Part shown: piece by piece, positions 25,901-38,479 of the stretch
How positions within the stretch are numbered: position 1 is the stretch's first letter
Layout of the letters: each line of letters opens with the position of its first letter
Origin: Candidatus Kaiserbacteria bacterium
Lineage (GTDB): Bacteria; Patescibacteriota; Minisyncoccia; Phycocordibacterales; UBA918
Direction of reading: 5' to 3'
Assembly: GCA_016699245.1 (NCBI GenBank)
Contig: CP064968.1
Span: 89,686-153,685, forward strand
Length of the DNA: 64,000 nucleotides
The notes under the pieces: generated by a model
Database searches by the model: none
What the model was told of the DNA's origin: nothing
What the model saw: only the letters and a program-made list of their open reading frames with translations
Made by a program: the position numbers and the translations under genes

Positions 25901-25967
25901 ATATAATATCCGTGGCAGAATATGGTGCAGTTTTTTGAGTATATTTCATATTCCTGAGGAGGAAAAG

Positions 25968-26345
25968 ATGGGAGATTCTGAGAGAAGTACTGTGTCATCC
26001 AGTCAAGAAGTTCTGGTAGCGCTGGCGCAGAAGGCTTGTGCGCTTGTTGATGCAGACATTAAGAAGCCTGAAGACGTCAAGATATGCTTTGGTGCAAGTT
26101 TTGAATTCGGGGTTATTACTTGCATCTGGAGCAAATTGTATCGCGATGGTAGTCAAACTGATGTGTTCTCGTATTTCTACCACCCGGAGTGCTGCTCAGG
26201 CCTCAAAAACGAAGGGGGTATACCTAGGTTGTGTGTGCAGACAGTGATGAGTTCATCTCCTCCGTATGTCACTACACCAAACGAATGGTACGAGATTCAA
26301 GGAATCTCTACCGAAAACCCAGTAGCAAAACGCATCGAAGTATGA
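25968..26345 (+). CDS. hypothetical protein
   Basis: GAGGAGG RBS 7 nt upstream of ATG at 25968; 125 aa, Cys-containing; no family recognised. Confidence 0.3.
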   Translation: MGDSERSTVSSSQEVLVALAQKACALVDADIKKPEDVKICFGASFEFGVITCIWSKLYRDGSQTDVFSYFYHPECCSGLKNEGGIPRLCVQTVMSSSPPYVTTPNEWYEIQGISTENPVAKRIEV

Positions 26346-26350
26346 TGTGC

Positions 26351-26392
26351 AAAGCCGCCAGAAAGCCCCTAGGGTTTTCGGCGGCTTTTTTA
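26351..26392 (+). terminator. rho-independent terminator
   Basis: aagccgcc...ggcggctt stem followed by TTTTTT. Confidence 0.5.
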
Positions 26393-26561
26393 ATTGAACT
26401 GGTTTTATTTAATAAAAATTATTTCAAATTATTTTTATAGTATCATTCTCTGAAAACTAATAAGATATCCATATTTTTATTGCTTTTTTCATAAATACCT
26501 GTATAACAGGCGTAGTAATTCCCCTCGTTCTTCAACAATTTAACACACCAGGAGGTGTATC

Positions 26562-28136
26562 GTGGCTGAAAGAAGAAATGGCACTCGCTTAAAGACTGCT
26601 ACCGGTCGTAAATCAATAAGACAAGAACCACCTCGTGAACTTCCCATCGTGCGCGCAATTCGCAAATTTGCCAATCGTGCGTGCGACGTATCAAGTATTG
26701 GTGAAGGCATGAGAAAGATTTTTGTGCTCGATACCAATGTGCTCATGCATGACCCCACGTGTATCTTCCGCTTTGAAGAACACGACGTCTTCATTCCGTT
26801 GATGACGCTTGATGAACTCGATAACCACAAGAAGGGAAAAGAGGAAATAAACCGAAATGTGCGTCAAGTTTTACGCGCAATCAAGGAACTTGCGGATGTA
26901 AAGGGATGCAAAATTACTGAAGGCATCGATCTTACTGGTCCATCAGAAGGACTTGCGACGGGCCGTCTCTTTTTGCAGAGCAAAAATATGGAAGGCGCAC
27001 TTCCTACATCCCTTCCAATGACCAAGGTTGATCATCAAATTCTCTCGGTGATCACCCACATGCAAGACAGTGAAGTGTATAAGGGTTGCATGATTATCTT
27101 GGTCACCAAAGATATCAATATGTATATCAAGGCGAAAGCGCTTGGCTACATGGTTGAAGACTATCTGAATGACAAGGTAATTGAAGATTCAGATTTGCTC
27201 TACTCGGGCGCTCTGGAACTTCCTGATGATTTTTGGTCAAATCATTCAGACGGTATGGTGGCCAAGAAAGATAGGCAGAGTGGGATATCAACATATCGTG
27301 TTACCGGTCCACTCTGTTCTACTTTTTACGTCAATCAGTTGCTTTGGTCGGAGTCACTCGATCTCGAATGTATCGTTCGTGAAGTGTCAGGGGATCATGC
27401 AGTGCTCCAGACGCTCGTGAATTACCGGAATCAAAAACACTCTGTCTTCGGTATTCACCCGAGAAATCGTGAGCAGAACTTCGCGTGTAATTTGCTCCTT
27501 GATCCGGACATTGATTTTGTATCTTTGCTTGGGCAGGCAGGTACCGGTAAAACCCTTCTCGCTATCGCCGCCGGTCTTCACCAGACGATTGATGGAAATA
27601 GGTTTGGTGACATCATCATGACCCGAGTCACCGTTTCAGTTGGCGAGGACATCGGCTTTCTTCCGGGTACCGAGGAAGAAAAGATGGGGGCATGGATGGG
27701 TGCACTCGAAGATAATCTTGAAGTGCTCGTATCAGTGGATGGGAATCATTCCAAGGATGACGGTGCATACGGTATCAATCATATTCCTTCGGACATAGCA
27801 CGAAAGGAGACACATCAACTGATAAGGAATCGTATCAAAGTGAAGTCACTCAACTTCATGCGTGGCCGTACATTTTTCAGGAGATACCTTATCATCGACG
27901 AGGCTCAAAATCTTACACCGAAGCAGATGAAAACTCTCATCACGCGAGCCGGTCCCGGCACCAAGGTGATTTGTCTTGGCAACATAGGGCAGATTGATTC
28001 ACCCTACCTTACGGAAGGGTCGTCGGGTCTTACCTATGTCGTTGATCGGTTCAAAGGTCAAAAACATGTGGGACACATCATCTTGCAGCGTGGTGAGCGT
28101 TCACGCCTTGCCGATTTGGCCAATGAATCACTCTGA
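26562..28136 (+). CDS. PhoH2-type protein (N-terminal PIN domain + PhoH ATPase, YlaK-like)
   Basis: GTG start 7 nt after AGGAGG; FVLDTNVLMHDP PIN motif; GQAGTGKT Walker A; IIDEAQN Walker B. Confidence 0.75.
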   Translation: MAERRNGTRLKTATGRKSIRQEPPRELPIVRAIRKFANRACDVSSIGEGMRKIFVLDTNVLMHDPTCIFRFEEHDVFIPLMTLDELDNHKKGKEEINRNVRQVLRAIKELADVKGCKITEGIDLTGPSEGLATGRLFLQSKNMEGALPTSLPMTKVDHQILSVITHMQDSEVYKGCMIILVTKDINMYIKAKALGYMVEDYLNDKVIEDSDLLYSGALELPDDFWSNHSDGMVAKKDRQSGISTYRVTGPLCSTFYVNQLLWSESLDLECIVREVSGDHAVLQTLVNYRNQKHSVFGIHPRNREQNFACNLLLDPDIDFVSLLGQAGTGKTLLAIAAGLHQTIDGNRFGDIIMTRVTVSVGEDIGFLPGTEEEKMGAWMGALEDNLEVLVSVDGNHSKDDGAYGINHIPSDIARKETHQLIRNRIKVKSLNFMRGRTFFRRYLIIDEAQNLTPKQMKTLITRAGPGTKVICLGNIGQIDSPYLTEGSSGLTYVVDRFKGQKHVGHIILQRGERSRLADLANESL

Positions 28137-29432: not shown

Positions 29433-30866
29433 ATGAGGGATATAAAATACAGAGATCACGCGGTTGCACCTATGTTATGGTCACGATACGCTACCTATTT
29501 TTTTGTGATGCTCGCTATTCTTCTTATCCCAGTCTTATTAGCATTCAAAGTAGAAGCAGACGTTGCTATTTTTCATTCAGACACGTATCTCGAGCAGGGC
29601 GTTGAGATGACGCATGAGTCAGGAACTGAAAAATATATACAGTATGAACACTTTTGGAGTGATTTTGAAGGAGTTGTTCCCGAAGATGCTCTTGTAAACA
29701 ATATTACACTCCATCTTACGTGGTCACCGGTGACGCGCGTGGTCTCTGATGGGGCAGTGGAAGATTCTCCAAAAGAGGTGACTCCAGAAAGTACTCATGA
29801 AGAGGTGATGAATGAACTACCTACGCCTGAAGAGCAATTAGGGGAATCATTGCATGAGGAACTCCCTGTAGAGCCAGACGTTGCTATTCCTGAAGAAACA
29901 GAACCTTCTTCAGAGGCGGTTATTCCTGTAGACAGTATTGATGAGCCTGAAGAAGTAATTATAGAAGAATCCACCTCTGATTCGCCTCCCGAAGCGAGTG
30001 ATAATTCATCGGAGACTGTGGGATTTGAGGAGGTTTCATGGAATCATTTGTATTCATTAGTTAATGCGCAGATTGAAGAGGAAGTTGCAACAAATACAAT
30101 AGTAATAACTGAAGGAAGTGAACCTGAAGTGATAATTACTGAGTCTATTTCGACCACTTCAGGATTTGTCTCGGAAGATATTTTGATTGAAAATCAGGCT
30201 GAGAAGTTCTTTGAAGTGCGGTATACGATTGATGGGGTGACATGGCAAGAGCTTGGGAATGTTGGATTTGATGATGCACAGGATACAGTATTTGATCTTT
30301 CACCTATAGGTATTGATGCAATACCAAACCTACGCGTTGCTATTCGATACACCGTTCGTGATGGAGAAACGACGAAGATTATTTTTGATTCAATGCGACT
30401 CGAAGTCGGATATGGAGCACCGGTCATAGAGGAAGTCGCTCCGCCCACCCTACAAAATGATAGCGAACCAAATTTTGACGTTGGTGCAATTAAGGCTGAT
30501 GTCCAATCGGAAAATATTCGAGCGGTTGTACTCGAAAGAGGAGGAGTCTTTGAGTTTTGGTACTCCGTCACTGACCCGCAATCAGGTGCAGTTTTTTGGA
30601 ATAAAATTCTTGGAGGAGGGGCTGTTGATGAGAATGCACCGATCGGTATTAAAAAACGGACGATATTTTGGCTTGATCGCAATCAACAAACACTCTTTGG
30701 GTTTGCTGTTGATGAAGAATCAATATTTGCAACTCCATTTCAAGATGACCAGGAAAGTAAAGTCTTTCTCCTTCCATTTACAGATGAAAATGGCAAGCCG
30801 TGGGAAGCACTATTTAATTCCTCAGAGAACGTACTTGAGTTCAGTAAAGTAAAAAGTGAATCATGA
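29433..30866 (+). CDS. membrane-anchored surface protein with E/P/S-rich acidic linker
   Basis: N-terminal TM (FFVMLAILLIPVLLAF), ~120-aa acidic low-complexity region, then a ~250-aa globular region; stop overlaps the start of the giant gene (ATGA). Confidence 0.5.
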   Translation: MRDIKYRDHAVAPMLWSRYATYFFVMLAILLIPVLLAFKVEADVAIFHSDTYLEQGVEMTHESGTEKYIQYEHFWSDFEGVVPEDALVNNITLHLTWSPVTRVVSDGAVEDSPKEVTPESTHEEVMNELPTPEEQLGESLHEELPVEPDVAIPEETEPSSEAVIPVDSIDEPEEVIIEESTSDSPPEASDNSSETVGFEEVSWNHLYSLVNAQIEEEVATNTIVITEGSEPEVIITESISTTSGFVSEDILIENQAEKFFEVRYTIDGVTWQELGNVGFDDAQDTVFDLSPIGIDAIPNLRVAIRYTVRDGETTKIIFDSMRLEVGYGAPVIEEVAPPTLQNDSEPNFDVGAIKADVQSENIRAVVLERGGVFEFWYSVTDPQSGAVFWNKILGGGAVDENAPIGIKKRTIFWLDRNQQTLFGFAVDEESIFATPFQDDQESKVFLLPFTDENGKPWEALFNSSENVLEFSKVKSES

Positions 30867-33800
30867 TGCGAGAGCGGCTCTTTCCATACATACGAGCGTT
30901 GTCGAAAAGACACATACTCATGGTGGGTGTTAGTTTTTTTATTATGGGCGTGTGTATTCTTGGCACACGACACCTTCTCGTTGGTGAAAAAGTTGGGCAG
31001 TTTATAAGGACGAATCGGGCGCTTGCACACTACCAATTCACCCCCACGCATGGCACCATCGTCACCGGCGCATCCACCACCATCACCTCAGCTACCGGAA
31101 ATACTACTGAAGGAGTCAATGTGGGTTCATGGAAGGGAACACTCTCCGACGATAACTATCACTGGGTCGTCGCTGGGGCAGGAGCAAGCGGACTTGATGT
31201 CAACCTCACCATGGGTGGGGTACAGTTAAACGGCGCCAACAAACTCATTGTCCAAACAGAATTTGACCTCGATGCGACCATTCTTGCAACTGAGGTACAG
31301 ATTTGTGACTGGACGTCATCAACTGATGTGGACGATGCCGCAGACAGTGAATGTACGGGTGGCGGGTGGCGTACCCTCAACACAAAAAATGAACTGCAAG
31401 GCCCGCAACGCCTCGTACACAGCACCGGTATCCCATTTCAGTGGCACCTTTATAACGGGTATTGGTCTACCGGCACGACCGGGGGAGCAGCGGTTGATAC
31501 GCCACTCACGAACTTCCTCAACGGTGCCGATCAGATGAAATTCCGATACTTCTCTGCCTCATCGAGCGTGTCCGAAATCGCCATTGACTACCTTCGTGTG
31601 TACGCGGTCGTCGACCCGGTCTATCACGCGGGAGGATTTGTACAGGAATCAGGCGGCACGCCGAGTGGCCACTATGGCAACACCTTTAGCGTCGGCCATT
31701 CCGTGACCGCACAATTCGCGGTGACTACCGGTGATAATATCTACCTCGGTGTCCCCGGTACGGTTGCGACTACATCAAACTTCTACCTCACCTTCAAGAA
31801 CGTGAAGACATACACCGGCATGAATACCATTCTCGTGAACGCCGAGACACTCTGTTCTCTCGCAACGGCTGGTCTCCAGTACCGATTCAAGATTCGCAAT
31901 TTTAATACCAGTATCTGGGAAGATATTTCACAACCACTCGACTGTTCTACCAACGGGTTTTTCAACAACTTTGCCTTAAACAACATCGTCATTGATGACT
32001 ACATCAATGCGTCAAACGAAATATGGGTGGGTGTCTCTGCGCTCTCAAACTCGACGACACAAATTCGCATCGACTCCATCTACCTCATGCTCGGCACTAC
32101 CAACACCGACACGAACAGTTGTGAAATATCATTTGGATCAAACACTGCAGGACGCATTGCCTCAAACCCCTCTGCGCCAGGAGCGGATCGTATCCAAGCA
32201 CTCACCTCAGATGGTACGTATATGTACGCTTCGGGATACGACAGTGCGGGAATCGATAATGAGTGGCGCATAGAGAAGCGCAATCTTTCCGACGGAGACC
32301 TCGTCTCGGCATTTGGTGTTGGTGGCGCAACCTCAACCGATCCCTCAGTTGGTGCCGACCAAATTTTCGCCATCGCCACAACCTCGGGTGCGATATTTGT
32401 TGCGGGGTATGACACAGCAGCGGGCACGGGGCAGTGGCGTATCGAGAAGCGCGATAGTACCGATGGTACGCTCGAAACCGCGTTTGATACGGATGGCATT
32501 ATCACCACAAATCCTTCAGCAAGCCTCGATCACATCAATGCGATTGCCACTGATGCGAGTTACCTCTACGTGGCAGGAGTTGAAAATACTACGAGTGGTA
32601 CGTGGCGCATTCATAAGTATGACATCACCACCGGTGCACTCGTTACCGCATTTGATGGAGATGGTATCGCGACGAGCACGCTTGCTGCCTCGGGCGACGA
32701 ACGACCGCAGGCGCTCAAGGTGGATGGCGACTATCTGTACATCGGGGGATACGACAACCTCTCCGGGAACATCGAGTGGCGTCTCGAGAAGCGCAACAAG
32801 ACCACCGGTGCACTTTGTGCGGGTGGAGGGGAGTGTGCCGCAGGTGCATTTGATACCGATGGTGTGGTGCAGACAAACCCCTCTTCGGGTATTGATGCAA
32901 TACGTGCACTCGCCATTACCGACGCACACGTGTTCCTTGCAGGATACGACTCATCAACCACAAACAACCAGTGGCGCATCGAAAAGCGCGATATCGCGAC
33001 CGGCGCACTCGATACTGCATTCGATACCGATGGTATTATGCAATATAACCCAAGTACCGGTGCTGACTGGATAACCGCACTCGCACTCGATGACACCACA
33101 CTCTACGCGATTGGAAATGTGAGCAACGGTGCGTGGCGTGTTGATGCTCGCGATATCACGACCGGTGCCTCGACGACGTTCTCCGGTAACGGTACGACAC
33201 TCTCTGAAGATGGTGGTGATGACCAGCCACTTGCCGTCGTACAGGAGGGTGGGTATCTCTATGTTGCAGGATACGGCACTGCTCCAGGAGACAACCAATG
33301 GCTCATCGAAAAACTTGCGACGAACACAGGGCTGCGGAGCACCGACAGCTTTGGTGCAAATGATTGCACCGGAACACGAAACATTGATATCACCGGCGGG
33401 AACAGAGATGCATGGACAATCCAGACACAAGATGAATCAACGAATCACAGTACTCCATACTATGCACTCGATACCGACGGTGATGCAGCAATTGAGGAAG
33501 CGGGATCAGCAACCATCGGGTTTTCGGTTGCGGTACCGGGAAACAGTGCTGTCACCGGTATCTACTGGGCAGGACGCGCAATGAACGGTGCAGGAGCGGG
33601 TACGGTGCGCCTTGCCGTGAAGGACTACTCAGGATTCACCGGCCTTACAGGAGGCAGAAGTCTCGTCGGTTCCTCACCAGGAATTGCTATGACATACACT
33701 GATCCCTTGATAGTTGGTGGTATTACCTCAGGAGGTATGGCAGGGTACCTCACAAACCCTGAGGATTATATTGATACCTTAAATAATGAGATGTCACTCA

Positions 33801-34270
33801 GTCTCGTGACCAACTCGGATGGTGCGAGTACCACGAATGCCGTGAACGTATGGGACTTTGCGATGGTGAGTTTTAGTTGGGTGGAGGATCCTGATCATGA
33901 AAGCGCCACGTATCAATTCACCCCCACGCATGGCACCATCGTCACCGGCGCATCCACCACCATCACCTCAGCTACCGGAAATACTACTGAAGGAGTCAAT
34001 GTGGGTTCATGGAAGGGAACACTCTCCGACGATAACTATCACTGGGTCGTCGCTGGGGCAGGAGCAAGCGGACTTGATGTCAACCTCACCATGGGTGGGG
34101 TACAGTTAAACGGCGCCAACAAACTCATTGTCCAAACAGAATTTGACCTCGATGCGACCATTCTTGCAACTGAGGTACAGATTTGTGACTGGACGTCATC
34201 AACTGATGTGGACGATGCCGCAGACAGTGAATGTACGGGTGGCGGGTGGCGTACCCTCAACACAAAATGA
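30863..34270 (+). CDS. giant surface beta-propeller protein, part 1 (N-terminal TM + repeat unit 1 + start of unit 2; truncated by TGA created by an A4 tract)
   Basis: N-terminal TM; ~60-aa repeats of form AGYD...WRIEKRDxxDGTLxTAFDTDGI resembling delta-60-type beta-propeller repeats; terminates at 34268 where copy 2 has A4 instead of A6. Confidence 0.6.
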   Translation: MMRERLFPYIRALSKRHILMVGVSFFIMGVCILGTRHLLVGEKVGQFIRTNRALAHYQFTPTHGTIVTGASTTITSATGNTTEGVNVGSWKGTLSDDNYHWVVAGAGASGLDVNLTMGGVQLNGANKLIVQTEFDLDATILATEVQICDWTSSTDVDDAADSECTGGGWRTLNTKNELQGPQRLVHSTGIPFQWHLYNGYWSTGTTGGAAVDTPLTNFLNGADQMKFRYFSASSSVSEIAIDYLRVYAVVDPVYHAGGFVQESGGTPSGHYGNTFSVGHSVTAQFAVTTGDNIYLGVPGTVATTSNFYLTFKNVKTYTGMNTILVNAETLCSLATAGLQYRFKIRNFNTSIWEDISQPLDCSTNGFFNNFALNNIVIDDYINASNEIWVGVSALSNSTTQIRIDSIYLMLGTTNTDTNSCEISFGSNTAGRIASNPSAPGADRIQALTSDGTYMYASGYDSAGIDNEWRIEKRNLSDGDLVSAFGVGGATSTDPSVGADQIFAIATTSGAIFVAGYDTAAGTGQWRIEKRDSTDGTLETAFDTDGIITTNPSASLDHINAIATDASYLYVAGVENTTSGTWRIHKYDITTGALVTAFDGDGIATSTLAASGDERPQALKVDGDYLYIGGYDNLSGNIEWRLEKRNKTTGALCAGGGECAAGAFDTDGVVQTNPSSGIDAIRALAITDAHVFLAGYDSSTTNNQWRIEKRDIATGALDTAFDTDGIMQYNPSTGADWITALALDDTTLYAIGNVSNGAWRVDARDITTGASTTFSGNGTTLSEDGGDDQPLAVVQEGGYLYVAGYGTAPGDNQWLIEKLATNTGLRSTDSFGANDCTGTRNIDITGGNRDAWTIQTQDESTNHSTPYYALDTDGDAAIEEAGSATIGFSVAVPGNSAVTGIYWAGRAMNGAGAGTVRLAVKDYSGFTGLTGGRSLVGSSPGIAMTYTDPLIVGGITSGGMAGYLTNPEDYIDTLNNEMSLSLVTNSDGASTTNAVNVWDFAMVSFSWVEDPDHESATYQFTPTHGTIVTGASTTITSATGNTTEGVNVGSWKGTLSDDNYHWVVAGAGASGLDVNLTMGGVQLNGANKLIVQTEFDLDATILATEVQICDWTSSTDVDDAADSECTGGGWRTLNTK

Positions 34271-36770
34271 ACTGCAAGGCCCGCAACGCCTCGTACACAG
34301 CACCGGTATCCCATTTCAGTGGCACCTTTATAACGGGTATTGGTCTACCGGCACGACCGGGGGAGCAGCGGTTGATACGCCACTCACGAACTTCCTCAAC
34401 GGTGCCGATCAGATGAAATTCCGATACTTCTCTGCCTCATCGAGCGTGTCCGAAATCGCCATTGACTACCTTCGTGTGTACGCGGTCGTCGACCCGGTCT
34501 ATCACGCGGGAGGATTTGTACAGGAATCAGGCGGCACGCCGAGTGGCCACTATGGCAACACCTTTAGCGTCGGCCATTCCGTGACCGCACAATTCGCGGT
34601 GACTACCGGTGATAATATCTACCTCGGTGTCCCCGGTACGGTTGCGACTACATCAAACTTCTACCTCACCTTCAAGAACGTGAAGACATACACCGGCATG
34701 AATACCATTCTCGTGAACGCCGAGACACTCTGTTCTCTCGCAACGGCTGGTCTCCAGTACCGATTCAAGATTCGCAATTTTAATACCAGTATCTGGGAAG
34801 ATATTTCACAACCACTCGACTGTTCTACCAACGGGTTTTTCAACAACTTTGCCTTAAACAACATCGTCATTGATGACTACATCAATGCGTCAAACGAAAT
34901 ATGGGTGGGTGTCTCTGCGCTCTCAAACTCGACGACACAAATTCGCATCGACTCCATCTACCTCATGCTCGGCACTACCAACACCGACACGAACAGTTGT
35001 GAAATATCATTTGGATCAAACACTGCAGGACGCATTGCCTCAAACCCCTCTGCGCCAGGAGCGGATCGTATCCAAGCACTCACCTCAGATGGTACGTATA
35101 TGTACGCTTCGGGATACGACAGTGCGGGAATCGATAATGAGTGGCGCATAGAGAAGCGCAATCTTTCCGACGGAGACCTCGTCTCGGCATTTGGTGTTGG
35201 TGGCGCAACCTCAACCGATCCCTCAGTTGGTGCCGACCAAATTTTCGCCATCGCCACAACCTCGGGTGCGATATTTGTTGCGGGGTATGACACAGCAGCG
35301 GGCACGGGGCAGTGGCGTATCGAGAAGCGCGATAGTACCGATGGTACGCTCGAAACCGCGTTTGATACGGATGGCATTATCACCACAAATCCTTCAGCAA
35401 GCCTCGATCACATCAATGCGATTGCCACTGATGCGAGTTACCTCTACGTGGCAGGAGTTGAAAATACTACGAGTGGTACGTGGCGCATTCATAAGTATGA
35501 CATCACCACCGGTGCACTCGTTACCGCATTTGATGGAGATGGTATCGCGACGAGCACGCTTGCTGCCTCGGGCGACGAACGACCGCAGGCGCTCAAGGTG
35601 GATGGCGACTATCTGTACATCGGGGGATACGACAACCTCTCCGGGAACATCGAGTGGCGTCTCGAGAAGCGCAACAAGACCACCGGTGCACTTTGTGCGG
35701 GTGGAGGGGAGTGTGCCGCAGGTGCATTTGATACCGATGGAGTGGTGCAGACAAACCCCTCTGCTGGTGTCGATACAATACGCGCACTCGCCATTACCGA
35801 CACACATGTTTTCGTTGCAGGATACGACTCCTCAACCACGAACAACCAGTGGCGCATCGAAAAGCGCGATATCGCGACCGGCGCACTTGAAACTGCATTC
35901 GATACCGATGGTATTATGCAATATAACCCAAGTACCGGTGCTGACTGGATAACCGCACTCGCACTCGATGACACCACACTCTACGCGATTGGAAATGTGA
36001 GCAACGGTGCGTGGCGTGTTGATGCCCGTGACATAACAACAGGTGCCTCGACGACGTTCTCCGGTAACGGTACGACACTCTCTGAAGATGGTGGTGATGA
36101 CCAGCCACTTGCCGTCGTACAGGAGGGTGGGTATCTCTATGTTGCAGGATACGGCACTGCTCCAGGAGACAACCAATGGCTCATCGAAAAACTTGCGACG
36201 AACACAGGGCTGCGGAGCACCGACAGCTTTGGTGCAAATGATTGCACCGGAACACGAAACATTGATATCACCGGCGGGAACAGAGATGCATGGACAATCC
36301 AGACACAAGATGAATCAACGAATCACAGTACTCCATACTATGCACTCGATACCGACGGTGATGCAGCAATTGAGGAAGCGGGATCAGCAACCATCGGGTT
36401 TTCGGTTGCGGTACCGGGAAACAGTGCTGTCACCGGTATCTACTGGGCAGGACGCGCAATGAACGGTGCAGGAGCGGGTACGGTGCGCCTTGCCGTGAAG
36501 GACTACTCAGGATTCACCGGCCTTACAGGAGGCAGAAGTCTCGTCGGTTCCTCACCAGGAATTGCTATGACATACACTGATCCCTTGATAGTTGGTGGTA
36601 TTACCTCAGGAGGTATGGCAGGGTACCTCACAAACCCTGAGGATTATATTGATACCTTAAATAATGAGATGTCACTCAGTCTCGTAACGAACTCGGATGG
36701 TGCAAGTACCACGAATGCCGTGAACGTATGGGACTTTGCGATGGTGAGTTTTAGTTGGGTGGAGCCGGAA
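31023..36770 (+). repeat. 2 x 2,874-bp near-identical tandem duplication inside the giant surface gene
   Basis: Copy 1 31023-33896 and copy 2 33897-36770; the 5' ~1.85 kb is identical apart from the A-tract, with clustered substitutions in the 3' third. Confidence 0.9.
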
Positions 36771-37172
36771 CCCGTGCCAGTCTATTCGATATCAATTACC
36801 AGTGATGGAACAATACAGTATGGGTTTGTAGACCTGAGTGTAGCGAGTTCGACCGTTGGTGGGGATACACAGGCAGCAGAAAATACGGGAAGCCTTAATG
36901 AAAAAATAAATATTCGTTCAAGTAACGCTCTTGGCGGGACGAGCTGGCTTCTTGCATCAGTAATTGGAAGTAATCAGTATACTCATGAATTTTCGACAAC
37001 GACGGGAGTAACGTGGAAAACAATGCCCGATAGCAGTACATACGTGGTTGCAGATCCGTCTGTGACACCAAGTGGTACGGTAGATTTTGATTTTAGACTC
37101 ACGATGCCAAGCGGCACCACTGATTTTGTTGAAAAATCAATTACTATTACAGTCCAGGCCGTCGCCCCATAG
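34266..37172 (+). CDS. giant surface beta-propeller protein, part 2 (remainder of repeat unit 2 + unique C-terminal ~130-aa domain)
   Basis: Frame continuing copy 2 after the A-tract shift (ORF-track 34128..37172; the first ~45 residues of that ORF are out-of-frame read-through). Confidence 0.6.
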   Translation, partial: NELQGPQRLVHSTGIPFQWHLYNGYWSTGTTGGAAVDTPLTNFLNGADQMKFRYFSASSSVSEIAIDYLRVYAVVDPVYHAGGFVQESGGTPSGHYGNTFSVGHSVTAQFAVTTGDNIYLGVPGTVATTSNFYLTFKNVKTYTGMNTILVNAETLCSLATAGLQYRFKIRNFNTSIWEDISQPLDCSTNGFFNNFALNNIVIDDYINASNEIWVGVSALSNSTTQIRIDSIYLMLGTTNTDTNSCEISFGSNTAGRIASNPSAPGADRIQALTSDGTYMYASGYDSAGIDNEWRIEKRNLSDGDLVSAFGVGGATSTDPSVGADQIFAIATTSGAIFVAGYDTAAGTGQWRIEKRDSTDGTLETAFDTDGIITTNPSASLDHINAIATDASYLYVAGVENTTSGTWRIHKYDITTGALVTAFDGDGIATSTLAASGDERPQALKVDGDYLYIGGYDNLSGNIEWRLEKRNKTTGALCAGGGECAAGAFDTDGVVQTNPSAGVDTIRALAITDTHVFVAGYDSSTTNNQWRIEKRDIATGALETAFDTDGIMQYNPSTGADWITALALDDTTLYAIGNVSNGAWRVDARDITTGASTTFSGNGTTLSEDGGDDQPLAVVQEGGYLYVAGYGTAPGDNQWLIEKLATNTGLRSTDSFGANDCTGTRNIDITGGNRDAWTIQTQDESTNHSTPYYALDTDGDAAIEEAGSATIGFSVAVPGNSAVTGIYWAGRAMNGAGAGTVRLAVKDYSGFTGLTGGRSLVGSSPGIAMTYTDPLIVGGITSGGMAGYLTNPEDYIDTLNNEMSLSLVTNSDGASTTNAVNVWDFAMVSFSWVEPEPVPVYSISITSDGTIQYGFVDLSVASSTVGGDTQAAENTGSLNEKINIRSSNALGGTSWLLASVIGSNQYTHEFSTTTGVTWKTMPDSSTYVVADPSVTPSGTVDFDFRLTMPSGTTDFVEKSITITVQAVAP

Positions 37173-37255
37173 TTTTAGAAAGTATAAAAAATGTTGATAA
37201 GCGTGAAGTAATCATGATGTTACTTGATACAATATAATAGAATTAATTAAATACT

Positions 37256-37807
37256 ATGTACCATCTTAATCACCACCAACTTTTTGGAGTAATAGAAAAA
37301 GCACGACACCAACTTTTTTTCATTGTAGTAAGTATGCTTTCGATCGCGATTGTTTTTGGTGGTATGAATGCTTTTGCACAGAGTACTGATACGGTGACTG
37401 CTACCGTGACCGCAACGAATCTTGCAGTCTCTGTTTCTGATGGTACTATCGCCTTTGGCTCAGTGGCGCTCAATACCGCAACAACGACCGTTGGCACCGC
37501 GCAAACACAAACCGTTTCTAATGATGGTTCGGCTGCAGTGCTTAATGTTAAATCGAGCAATGCAACAAATGGTACATTGTGGACTCTCGGCACAAGTCCT
37601 GGTTCGGATATTTTTAAACTCGAAGTATCAACAACGACGGGATCAACATACGGGACGCTTCAGGCTACTGACGTATATCTCACCGCATCATCAACGTTTG
37701 CCTCACTCACAAATCAAAACGTTGATTTCCGCTTCACGACACCAACTGTCTCCACAGACTTCGTCCAAAAGTCACTCACTATTACCGTGCAGGTGACGAC
37801 ACCATAA
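37256..37807 (+). CDS. small secreted protein paralogous to the C-terminal domain of the giant protein
   Basis: TM/signal, then a domain aligning with 36771..37172 (LWTLGTS vs SWLLASV; EVSTTTGSTYG vs EFSTTTGVTWK; DFRFTTP vs DFDFRLTMP; KSLTITVQV vs KSITITVQA). Confidence 0.5.
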   Translation: MYHLNHHQLFGVIEKARHQLFFIVVSMLSIAIVFGGMNAFAQSTDTVTATVTATNLAVSVSDGTIAFGSVALNTATTTVGTAQTQTVSNDGSAAVLNVKSSNATNGTLWTLGTSPGSDIFKLEVSTTTGSTYGTLQATDVYLTASSTFASLTNQNVDFRFTTPTVSTDFVQKSLTITVQVTTP

Positions 37808-37819
37808 TTACCTATTTAG

Positions 37820-38479
37820 ATGAAATATGGTATACCTATCTACATGCGATTAGCCACATACTCAGTTTTAGTAAAAATTCTGTTTGTCTTTGGGATTGTT
37901 TCTGTACTATTTTTACTCTCCTCAGAGGAGATGTTTGCGAAAGTTGGTGTGGGGATGGGTGCAGGTGAGATTCGAGTAACAGAATCCATAAAGCCAGGGG
38001 GGATTTACTCACTTCCCAGCCTTCGTGTGTTTAATACCGGAGATGAAACGACTACGTATGGAATGAATATTGCGTATCATCAGGACAATCCACAACTACG
38101 ACCAGGAAAATCATGGTTTTCTTTTACTCCTGCAACGTTCACGATAGAACCAGGTGAAAGTCAGGAAGTTCAGATATCGATGTCAGTCCCGGTGAAAACT
38201 GATCCGGGAGAATATTTTGCTTTTCTCGAAAGCGGACCAGTTGCGGAGGGTGGCCCAGGAACATCGGTAGGTGTTGCTGTTGCTACAAAACTCTATTTTG
38301 ATGTTGTACATGCAAATCTTTGGAGCGCACTGACGTACAGAGTTTCTACATTTCTCACGATATATGCACCGTGGTCATGGATTGGCTTAGGGCTTCTCGT
38401 GTGTGGTGCCGTTGCTTTTATCTTTGCGCGATTCTTTTCCCTGGACGTTTCCTTACGAAAAAAGAAAACACAAGAGTAA
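37820..38479 (+). CDS. membrane-anchored beta-sandwich surface protein (DUF916/DUF3324-like architecture)
   Basis: N-terminal signal/TM, Ig-like segment (FTIEPGESQEVQISMSVPVKTDPGEYFAFLE), C-terminal TM + basic tail RKKKTQE. Confidence 0.4.
   Translation: MKYGIPIYMRLATYSVLVKILFVFGIVSVLFLLSSEEMFAKVGVGMGAGEIRVTESIKPGGIYSLPSLRVFNTGDETTTYGMNIAYHQDNPQLRPGKSWFSFTPATFTIEPGESQEVQISMSVPVKTDPGEYFAFLESGPVAEGGPGTSVGVAVATKLYFDVVHANLWSALTYRVSTFLTIYAPWSWIGLGLLVCGAVAFIFARFFSLDVSLRKKKTQE

What the first reader, a model, noticed from the sequence alone, without database searches (positions are those of the whole stretch)
32860..36700. Patchy divergence between the two repeat copies suggests gene conversion
The 5' two-thirds of the 2.9-kb units are identical, whereas substitutions cluster in the 3' third. 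About 12 differences lie within ~100 bp at 32880-32960 versus 35760-35830, giving GIDAIRALAITDAHVFLAGYDSS versus GVDTIRALAITDTHVFVAGYDSS. A few more lie near 33000, 33130 and 33760. A recent duplication would diverge uniformly, so the pattern implies ongoing homogenisation of the 5' part or a hot variable patch on the propeller surface.
Basis: seen in the sequence. Interest (0 to 1): 0.5.

Follow-up and report, generated by a model that had tools for sequence, protein, structure and literature searches.

The report
Two near-identical modules kept alike by recombination
A giant surface-protein gene of an ultra-small (Patescibacteria) bacterium carries its 952-codon core module twice in tandem; the copies are identical except for four short islands of old, selection-filtered differences, which is the mark of gene conversion and a known kind of repeat evolution.

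Summary
Unit 1 (31031-33886) and unit 2 (33911-36764) are joined in frame by a 24-nt linker inside one gene (30863-37172). After the first codon there are no substitutions for 1.83 kb. Then 24 substitutions follow, 23 of them in four islands of 4-78 bp (clustering P<1e-5).

The differences are not fresh mutations: 17 lie at codon position 3, 7 at position 1, none at position 2. dN/dS is 0.10, as for the ortholog. Local dS in the main island (0.40) exceeds dS to a 91%-identical relative (0.31).

The two-unit form with a homologous 8-residue linker (D-x-D/N-H...) occurs in seven lineages, six of them 27-40% diverged from the window. Units cluster by genome, not by position. Inter-unit identity ranges from 71-82% (mosaic) to 99-100%. 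Close relatives have one unit.

This indicates an old duplication, concerted evolution by intragenic conversion, and recurrent loss of a unit. A "hot patch" under diversifying selection is rejected.

Not excluded: the islands could be strain variants mis-phased by the assembler, which needs read data.

This is a new member of a known kind; the closest named class is surface proteins with high-identity tandem repeats ("Periscope proteins").

The parts
30863..37172 (+). One surface-protein gene with the layout: N-terminal hydrophobic anchor, unit 1, linker, unit 2, C-terminal domain. It would encode 2103 aa if the 2-bp deletion were restored. As assembled it is split into ORF 30863-34270 (1135 aa) and an open frame 34266-37172.
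   Evidence: ORF list and translations. Restoring AA gives a 2103-aa open frame. Intact two-unit orthologs of 2116 aa (L005) and 2147 aa (L025) exist.
30863..31030 (+). N-terminal segment (aa 1-56) with a hydrophobic stretch (ILMVGVSFFIMGVCILG), ending ...RALAH just before the unit. It is not part of the repeat.
   Evidence: Translation. Identity between the copies ends here.
31031..33886 (+). Unit 1: 952 codons, YQFTPTHG...SFSWVE. Predicted as two jelly-roll-like beta-sandwiches, a 7-bladed beta-propeller (about 32120-33322) and a C-terminal beta-sandwich.
   Evidence: Alignment. AlphaFold2 model with pLDDT 77.5 and pTM 0.75. Foldseek hits to 7-bladed propellers and to CBM/reelin-like sandwiches.
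33887..33910 (+). Linker J: 8 codons (DPDHESAT). It resembles neither the N-flank nor the C-flank.
   Evidence: Sequence. Homologous 8-residue linkers with an invariant His occur in L005, L006/P0003, P0002, P0008, P0027/L022 and L025.
33911..36764 (+). Unit 2: the same 952-codon module, minus 2 bp. It is in frame with unit 1 up to 34263.
31384..31389 (+). A6 run in unit 1. This is the intact state, shared with L001 and L004.
34264..34270 (+). A4 run in unit 2 (a 2-bp deletion) followed by the resulting in-frame TGA at 34268-34270.
   Evidence: It is the only frame-breaking indel found in about 12 kb compared with L001.
32885..32962 (+). Island P1 in unit 1 (partner 35763-35840 in unit 2). It has 12 substitutions causing 5 conservative replacements, in blade 5 of the propeller. 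An isolated synonymous site lies at 32863/35741.
   Evidence: Local dS is 0.40 and omega 0.21. The variant states are shared with distant lineages.
35763..35840 (+). Island P1 in unit 2.
33010..33013 (+). Island P2 (partner 35888-35891): 2 substitutions, one synonymous and one D/E.
33148..33163 (+). Island P3 (partner 36026-36041): six consecutive synonymous third-position differences (A R D I T T) in blade 6. Unit 1 matches L001 at 5 of 6 sites; unit 2 matches at none.
36026..36041 (+). Island P3 in unit 2.
33808..33826 (+). Island P4 (partner 36686-36704): 3 synonymous differences, 60-78 nt from the 3' end of the unit. Unit 1 carries the L001 state at all three.
31033..31033 (+). Copy-specific synonymous difference in the first codon of the unit (TAC here, TAT at 33913). 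It is 3 nt from the unique flank, so its assignment to a copy is fixed by that flank.
36765..37172 (+). C-terminal 135-aa domain (PEPVPVYSISIT...QAVAP) outside the repeat. It is 44% identical to the product of the next gene, 37256-37807.

Best explanation
Proposed history and mechanism, with each step marked as shown or inferred.

1. Architecture (shown). A 952-codon four-domain module (two beta-sandwiches, a 7-bladed propeller, one more beta-sandwich) is present twice in tandem, in frame, inside one membrane-anchored surface-protein gene of a Patescibacteria (Paceibacterota-like) genome.

2. Age (inferred from comparison). The duplication is old. It carries a dedicated 8-residue linker that is shared with lineages whose units are 27-40% diverged.

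3. Concerted evolution (pattern shown, process inferred). Homologous recombination between the two direct repeats (gene conversion and unequal crossing-over) repeatedly overwrites one unit with the other, so the units evolve in concert. The same process occasionally deletes a unit, producing the single-unit relatives.

4. State in this genome (inferred). The latest homogenisation was very recent: there is no substitution in 1.83 kb. The four short islands are the only places where older, selection-filtered divergence survives. They are either tracts that escaped conversion or heteroduplex repair, or short tracts imported from a diverged allele.

5. Location of the islands (shown). They lie in the family's most variable segment, blades 5-6. 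That is where mismatches would most impede strand exchange (inferred).

6. Frameshift (inferred). The 2-bp deletion in unit 2 is a very recent lesion or a consensus error, because unit 2 shows no other decay.
For: Within the window:
- Clustering is far beyond chance.
- Codon positions of the differences are 17 (third), 0 (second) and 7 (first), with 18 synonymous and 6 conservative non-synonymous changes.
- Omega is 0.10, equal to the ortholog value of 0.108. P1 dS (0.40) exceeds the window-L001 dS (0.31).
- Variant states in P1 and P3 recur in distant lineages.

Copy number in relatives:
- The syntenic relative L001/L002 (91% nt) has one unit.
- L005 has an intact 2116-aa two-unit ORF.
- L025 has an intact 2147-aa two-unit ORF. 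Its units are 82% identical and mosaic, 57-98% in 90-nt windows, with identical runs up to 101 nt.
- In L022 the units are 71% identical in the 5' part and 98.6% identical in a 3' piece.

Age and concerted evolution:
- The linker is 8 residues with an invariant His in seven lineages.
- Units cluster by genome, and linker-bearing lineages are scattered among single-unit ones.
- Contigs of L006, P0002 and P0008 break inside the end of unit 1, as expected for near-identical units.

Reality of the duplication:
- An independent Logan contig from SRR11674051 is 100% identical to 36735-37938. It starts exactly 30 nt (k-1) inside the repeat end, so a branch exists there in that read set.

Location:
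- The islands lie in the least conserved family segment.
Against: - No read-level data were available, so the assignment of islands P1-P3 to copies cannot be verified. A 644-nt identical run separates P3 from P4, which a short-read assembler may not bridge.
- The 100% identity in L005 may be produced by an assembler traversing a loop twice.
- L022 is broken into three ORFs, and its unit 2 belongs to another clade (86% aa to P0008/P0012). It could therefore be a chimeric contig rather than retained ancient divergence.
- Islands as short as 4-16 bp with perfectly identical flanks are unusual for simple conversion tracts.
- No donor for the unit-2 states was found in the window.
- Shared descent of the linker rests on only 8 residues.
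Confidence: 0.7

Rival explanations
1. Assembly phasing artefact. The tandem two-unit gene is real, but the two units are identical (or differ otherwise) in any one genome. The four islands and the A4 allele would be variants of co-occurring strains that the assembler distributed over the two passes through a collapsed repeat.
For: - The sequence looks like a metagenome-assembled genome, and its relatives are all MAG contigs.
- Short-read assemblies of relatives break at, or collapse, this repeat.
- The variant states look like old population alleles, which fits strain variation as well as it fits paralogous variation.
- P1-P3 are separated from the unit end and from P4 by a 644-nt identical run.
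Against: - An assembler that traverses a collapsed repeat twice normally outputs identical copies, as in L005, not alternative bubble branches.
- The TAC/TAT difference in the first codon is 3 nt from a unique flank, and P4 is 60-78 nt from one. Both are therefore anchored within a single read.
- Unit 1 consistently carries the L001-like state at P3 and P4 and the intact A6 run. This is coherent phasing, not a random mix.
- The rest of the assembly shows no frame-breaking indels against L001.
Confidence: 0.2
2. Recent duplication followed by local hypermutation or diversifying selection on a ligand-binding patch of the propeller.
For: - All six amino-acid differences lie in blade 5.
- Blades 5-6 are the least conserved part of the family.
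- The two units of L025 differ most in the same region.
Against: - Omega is 0.10 overall and 0.21 in P1. There are no second-position changes and only conservative replacements. P3 and P4 are purely synonymous.
- Of the five P1 replacements, only L692V lies inside a predicted blade strand and A679T flanks one; S675A, I677V and A688T fall in the turns between strands.
- The linker shared with diverged lineages argues against a recent duplication.
Confidence: 0.03
3. Cassette-type variation. The frameshifted unit 2 is a silent donor copy, and short segments are copied from it into the expressed unit 1 (or the reverse) to vary an attachment protein, as in segmental gene-conversion systems. The A-run would act as an on/off switch, or be read through by a +1 shift at AAA-TGA.
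For: - Unit 2 is out of frame yet otherwise intact (968 open codons).
- The differences come as short tracts.
- The gene sits next to type IV pilus genes in a lineage thought to live attached to hosts.
Against: - Orthologs L005 and L025 read both units in one intact frame, so a silent second unit is not the conserved state.
- A run of 4-6 A is short for slippage, and the change is 2 bp.
- There are only two copies, and their differences are mostly synonymous, so they generate almost no protein diversity.
Confidence: 0.05

Closest known systems
Bacterial surface proteins with high-identity tandem repeats and repeat-number variation ('Periscope proteins': Rib/alpha C, SasG/Aap, Sgo_0707 SHIRT; PMC8201768)
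   Same: - It is a cell-surface protein gene with tandem repeats that are nearly identical at the DNA level.
- Repeat number differs between close relatives: 1 unit in L001 and 2 in the window.
- High DNA identity is expected to drive intragenic recombination.
   Different: - The unit here is a 952-residue four-domain module that includes a complete 7-bladed propeller. Periscope repeats are single small domains of about 80-130 residues that build a rod.
- Only one or two copies have been seen.
- The anchor is an N-terminal hydrophobic segment, not a C-terminal wall-sorting motif.
- The organism is an uncultured Patescibacterium.
- No evidence of a stalk function.
Concerted evolution of duplicated bacterial genes by gene conversion (textbook cases: tufA/tufB, rRNA operons; from my own knowledge)
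   Same: - Paralogs are far more alike within a genome than orthologs are between genomes.
- Identity is mosaic.
- Differences persist mainly near repeat edges and in short islands.
   Different: - The repeats here are adjacent modules of one ORF, so unequal crossing-over also changes protein length.
- Homogenisation is demonstrably incomplete in some lineages (L025, L022).
delta-60 repeat beta-propeller proteins (NCBIfam TIGR02608)
   Same: The propeller has blades of about 57 residues with a W-R-I-E-K-R ... D-G motif, and there is a weak match to the model (19.9 bits).
   Different: The score is far below the curated cut-off of 76.5 bits, and no Pfam family matches. The resemblance is at fold and repeat-length level only.
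Segmental gene-conversion antigenic variation (e.g. Mycoplasma genitalium MgPa/MgPar, PMC2169797)
   Same: Short tracts differ between an expressed copy and an out-of-frame copy of an attachment-type protein in a reduced-genome bacterium.
   Different: - There is only one extra copy, and it is adjacent and normally in frame in relatives.
- The differences are mostly synonymous.
- No repertoire of donor cassettes was found.

Membership tests
Concerted evolution by gene conversion between tandem duplicates | Paralogous copies within a genome are more similar to each other than to orthologs in related genomes. | tested here: met
   Unit 1 and unit 2 of the window are 99.1% identical, against 91% to L001 and 67-75% to other lineages. 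Units of the window, L005 and L025 each pair by genome in the tree.
Concerted evolution by gene conversion between tandem duplicates | The duplication predates the divergence of the lineages compared, so the events are not independent and recent. | tested here: met
   An 8-residue linker with an invariant His and a D/E-x-D/N/S-H pattern occurs in seven lineages and is unrelated to the N- or C-flank. Caveat: only 8 residues carry this inference.
Concerted evolution by gene conversion between tandem duplicates | Mosaic identity: long identical tracts interrupted by segments of deep divergence. | tested here: met
   In the window, four islands lie in an otherwise identical unit and P1 dS is 0.40. 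In L025, identity ranges 57-98% with identical runs up to 101 nt. In L022, identity is 71% in the 5' part against 98.6% in a 3' piece.
Concerted evolution by gene conversion between tandem duplicates | Both copies, with their differences, are shown to lie on one DNA molecule. | not testable with these tools
   No reads were available. The only indirect support is that a Logan contig breaks exactly k-1 nt inside the repeat end.
Periscope-type variable-length surface proteins (PMC8201768) | Tandem repeats with very high DNA identity in a surface-protein gene. | tested here: met
   The repeats are 99.0% identical over 2.86 kb. Surface location is inferred from the N-terminal hydrophobic anchor and from fn3- and dockerin-bearing neighbouring genes.
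Periscope-type variable-length surface proteins (PMC8201768) | Repeat number varies among close relatives. | tested here: met
   L001/L002 (91% nt, syntenic) have one unit and the window has two.
Periscope-type variable-length surface proteins (PMC8201768) | Repeats are single folded domains arrayed head to tail as a rod-like stalk that projects a distal binding domain. | tested here: not met
   The unit is a 952-residue module of four domains including a 7-bladed propeller. No stalk-like array is present.
delta-60 repeat domain (TIGR02608) | A score at or above the curated NCBIfam cut-off of 76.5 bits. | tested here: not met
   The scores are 19.9 and 14.9 bits.

The most novel reading that the evidence does not exclude
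The two-unit gene could be a built-in variation device for a host-attachment protein of an episymbiotic Patescibacterium. Recombination between the modules would switch the protein between one and two binding modules. It would also shuffle short tracts in blades 5-6, the family's most variable surface. The out-of-frame second module would serve as a silent donor, and the A-run as a switch.
Probability: 0.05. Interest if true: 0.7.

Novelty: new member of a known kind. Interest (0 to 1): 0.33.

Why it matters
It is a clean example, backed by comparison across lineages, of concerted evolution acting on a very large (2.9 kb, four-domain) intragenic repeat in the little-studied Patescibacteria. 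The cell-surface proteins of these bacteria are presumed to mediate attachment to host cells.

It also has a practical consequence. Short-read assemblies break at, or collapse, this repeat. Several database 'proteins' of about 1,140 residues are in fact fragments that begin inside unit 1 (P0002, P0003, P0008). Module number and inter-module differences in this family are therefore under-reported.

It does not open a new mechanism.

Tried and rejected
- **Donor search for the unit-specific island sequences in the window (k-mers of 11-14 nt, both strands).** There was no convincing donor. Only 12-13-mers were shared with other blades. One in-frame 16-mer (GGTATTGATGCAATAC) is shared between the upstream gene (30309) and unit 1 P1 (32888). 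I treat it as a curiosity, because the flanking homology is nil.
- **Family assignment.** Pfam gave no match for the unit. NCBIfam gave only a sub-threshold delta-60 hit.
- **Exact-protein look-ups of the 1135-aa ORF and the upstream gene.** Nothing is on record. The source assembly could not be identified, and the GTDB representative scan did not return the source genome.
- **Tandem Repeats Finder and tRNA scan around the locus.** Nothing was found; the TRF period limit is 500.
- **Sequencing error as the cause of the substitutions.** Rejected because of the codon-position bias and the low omega.
- **Whole-duplication artefact (false tandem duplication).** Rejected because the linker is a unique sequence homologous to linkers in other lineages, and because an independent contig breaks at the predicted k-1 position.
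- **Independent recent duplications in each lineage.** Rejected because of the shared linker.
- **Using L022 as proof of ancient unit divergence.** Downgraded. Its unit 2 belongs to another clade and the gene is broken, so a chimeric contig or an inter-lineage import is equally possible.
- **Literature searches for this family or for repeat homogenisation in Patescibacteria.** No direct precedent was found. The Periscope-protein paper is the nearest described class.
Full report
**What is in the sequence**

A self-comparison of 29-39 kb finds one direct repeat, 31028-33886 and 33907-36764, at 99.0% identity. At codon level the structure is:
- unit 1, 31031-33886 (952 codons, YQFTPTHG...SFSWVE);
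- a 24-nt linker, 33887-33910 (DPDHESAT);
- unit 2, 33911-36764.

All three lie inside one reading frame. That frame starts at 30863 with a hydrophobic N-terminal anchor and ends at 37172 after a 135-residue C-terminal domain. The 'two copies' are therefore two modules of one gene, not two genes.

**The difference map**

- One synonymous change lies in the very first codon (TAC/TAT, 31033/33913).
- Unit 2 has a 2-bp deletion: A6 at 31384-31389 becomes A4 at 34264-34267. This creates TGA at 34268-34270.
- No substitution occurs from 31034 to 32862.
- Twenty-four substitutions follow:
  - 32863, a single site;
  - P1, 32885-32962 (12 sites);
  - P2, 33010 and 33013;
  - P3, 33148-33163 (six consecutive third positions);
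  - P4, 33808, 33811 and 33826.
- Identical runs of 47, 134, 644 and 60 nt lie between and after the islands.

Clustering is far beyond chance. The probability that all 24 substitutions fall in the last 36% of the unit is 2e-11. No permutation out of 100,000 matched the observed gap structure, even within that third.

**Nature of the differences**

- Seventeen substitutions are at codon position 3, seven at position 1 and none at position 2.
- Eighteen changes are synonymous. Six are conservative replacements (S/A, I/V, A/T, A/T, L/V, D/E).
- dN/dS between the units in the 3' third is 0.10. The value between unit 1 and its ortholog in L001 is 0.108.
- Within P1, dS is 0.40. That is larger than the dS between the window and L001 (0.31).

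These are therefore not sequencing errors and not new mutations in a recent duplicate. They are not the product of diversifying selection either. They are stretches of old divergence that has passed through purifying selection.

Polarising with other lineages agrees:
- At P3 and P4, unit 1 carries the L001/L004 state and unit 2 a different one.
- At P1, the two haplotypes each share states with different distant lineages. For example, T/G at 32885 and C/G at 32936 split the family the same way.

**What the module is**

Pfam finds nothing. NCBIfam gives only a sub-threshold delta-60-repeat hit of 19.9 bits against a cut-off of 76.5.

An AlphaFold2 model of unit 1 built on 29 homologs has pLDDT 77.5 and pTM 0.75. 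It is all-beta: two sandwich domains, a 7-bladed propeller (unit residues about 365-765) and a further sandwich. Foldseek matches generic 7-bladed propellers and CBM/reelin-type jelly rolls.

P1 and P2 lie in blade 5, P3 in blade 6, and P4 in the last sandwich. P1 spans two blade-5 strands (E625-630 and E634-641); of its five replaced residues, L692V lies inside the second strand, A679T flanks the first, and S675A, I677V and A688T sit in the turns between strands.

The genomic context is a conserved surface-protein cluster next to type IV pilus/T2SS ATPase and platform genes. Homologs come from Patescibacteria/Paceibacterota MAGs.

**Comparative evidence**

*Single-unit relatives.* The closest relative is L001/L002. 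These are two assemblies that may derive from one sample. They are 91% identical in nucleotides, syntenic across more than 15 kb, and have one unit in a 1143-aa protein. L004 and L023 are also single-unit.

*Two-unit relatives with a linker.*
- L005 has an intact 2116-aa ORF with linker DVDHPSSV. Its units are 100% identical, which may be an assembler loop.
- L025 has an intact 2147-aa ORF with linker DANHPTKT. Its units are 82% identical and strongly mosaic, 57-98% in 90-nt windows, with identical runs up to 101 nt.
- L006/P0003, P0002 and P0008 are contigs that begin inside the end of unit 1 and run through a linker (EEPSHSSVS, DVDHPGTQ, DPDHPSTN) into unit 2. These are assembly breaks of the kind a near-identical repeat produces.
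- L022/P0027 has linker DADHQSTQ. Its units are 71% identical over 1.85 kb and 98.6% identical in a 293-nt 3' piece.

*The linker.* It is 8 residues long in all of these lineages, with an invariant His. It resembles neither the N-flank (...ALAH) nor the C-flank (PEPVPV...).

*The tree.* In a tree of 25 units, the two units of a genome pair with each other. Linker-bearing lineages are scattered among single-unit ones.

*Simplest reading.* There was one old duplication. The units have since been homogenised repeatedly, to a degree that varies by lineage. One unit has been lost recurrently by unequal crossing-over, which removes exactly one unit plus the linker.

*Caveat on L022.* Its unit 1 is L004-like (91-93% nt). 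Its unit 2 is closest to P0008/P0012 (86% aa), and the gene is broken. It may be a chimeric contig or an import rather than retained divergence.

**Why the islands are where they are**

Across the family, the least conserved 30-residue windows fall at ORF residues 672-790. These are blades 5-6, with mean pairwise identity 0.52-0.57 against an overall 0.68. P1-P3 (residues 667-767) lie in that stretch. L025's two units also differ most there.

I infer that conversion tracts, or heteroduplex repair, fail most often where the partners were most diverged. The first-codon difference and P4 sit at the repeat edges, where homogenisation is expected to be weakest. These mechanistic steps are inference, not observation.

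**Is the duplication or its pattern an artefact?**

The duplication itself is not an artefact.
- The linker is unique sequence with homologs elsewhere.
- A Logan contig from SRR11674051 is 100% identical to 36735-37938. It begins exactly 30 nt (k-1 for k=31) inside the repeat end. That is the signature of a branch between 'linker next' and 'C-terminal domain next' in an independent assembly of raw reads.

General assembly quality looks good. Against L001, all coding indels in about 12 kb are multiples of three or are alignment pairs.

What cannot be settled here is whether P1-P3 and the A4 allele are correctly assigned to unit 2, or are strain variants. Two points argue against a pure strain artefact. 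The edge differences are read-anchored, and unit 1 coherently carries L001-like states. Only reads can decide. I put this rival at about 0.2.

**The frameshift**

As assembled, translation stops at 34270. The remaining 968 codons of unit 2 and the C-terminal domain are open in another frame, with no start codon of their own.

Orthologs read straight through. Unit 2 shows no other decay. The lesion is therefore either very recent or a consensus error in a repeat. A prfB-like +1 shift at AAA-TGA would restore the frame, but nothing supports that it is programmed.

**Verdict**

Gene conversion, meaning concerted evolution of an old intragenic duplication, is the best-supported explanation, at about 0.7. 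The 'hot patch' alternative is rejected as selection-driven diversification.

The phenomenon belongs to a known kind: high-identity tandem repeats with copy-number variation in bacterial surface proteins (PMC8201768), and classical concerted evolution. It is unusual mainly for the size and multi-domain nature of the unit and for its host lineage.

Noticed in passing
window 34264-34270 (compare 31384-31389): A 2-bp deletion in an A-run (A6 to A4) frameshifts unit 2 and truncates the protein at 1135 aa. It is the only frame-breaking indel seen in about 12 kb compared with L001. Orthologs L005 and L025 are intact.
   Followed up: partly
window 25915-28122 (gene 26562-28136): A PIN-PhoH ATPase gene is present here but absent at the matching site of the 91%-identical syntenic contig L001 (L001 3969-4120). 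L022 also has a PIN/PhoH gene upstream, so L001 probably lost it.
   Followed up: no
window 30309-30324 and 32888-32903: An exact in-frame 16-mer (GGTATTGATGCAATAC, encoding G-I-D-A-I) is shared between the upstream gene and unit 1's island P1. It covers three of the variant sites. There is no flanking similarity. It may be chance or a micro-conversion.
   Followed up: partly
window 36765-37169 and 37256-37804: The C-terminal domain of the big protein is 44% identical (E=8e-23) to most of the next gene's 183-aa product. This looks like a domain duplication within the operon.
   Followed up: partly
L022 5348-10960 (JGI Ga0558121_04337): This two-unit homolog is split into three ORFs. Unit 1 is L004-like (91-93% nt). 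The 5' 1.85 kb of unit 2 is closest to the P0008/P0012 clade (86% aa). About 310 and 370 nt are missing from the units. It is either a chimeric contig or a real inter-lineage mosaic pseudogene.
   Followed up: partly
P0002, P0003, P0008 (database proteins of about 1110-1150 aa): These entries look full-length by size, but they are fragments that start inside the end of unit 1, cross the linker and contain unit 2. Two-unit genes are therefore hidden in short-read assemblies.
   Followed up: yes
window 32001-36000: G+C is 53% across the repeated units, against about 45% in the surrounding 60 kb. This probably reflects the Gly/Ala/Thr/Asp-rich composition, but it was not analysed.
   Followed up: no
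L031 4319-8773 (P0025-type homologs of about 1550 aa, 42% identity): These distant relatives align past the end of unit 1 into the first 375 or so residues of a second unit, and then to the terminal sandwich. This suggests a '1.4-unit' architecture that lacks the second propeller.
   Followed up: no
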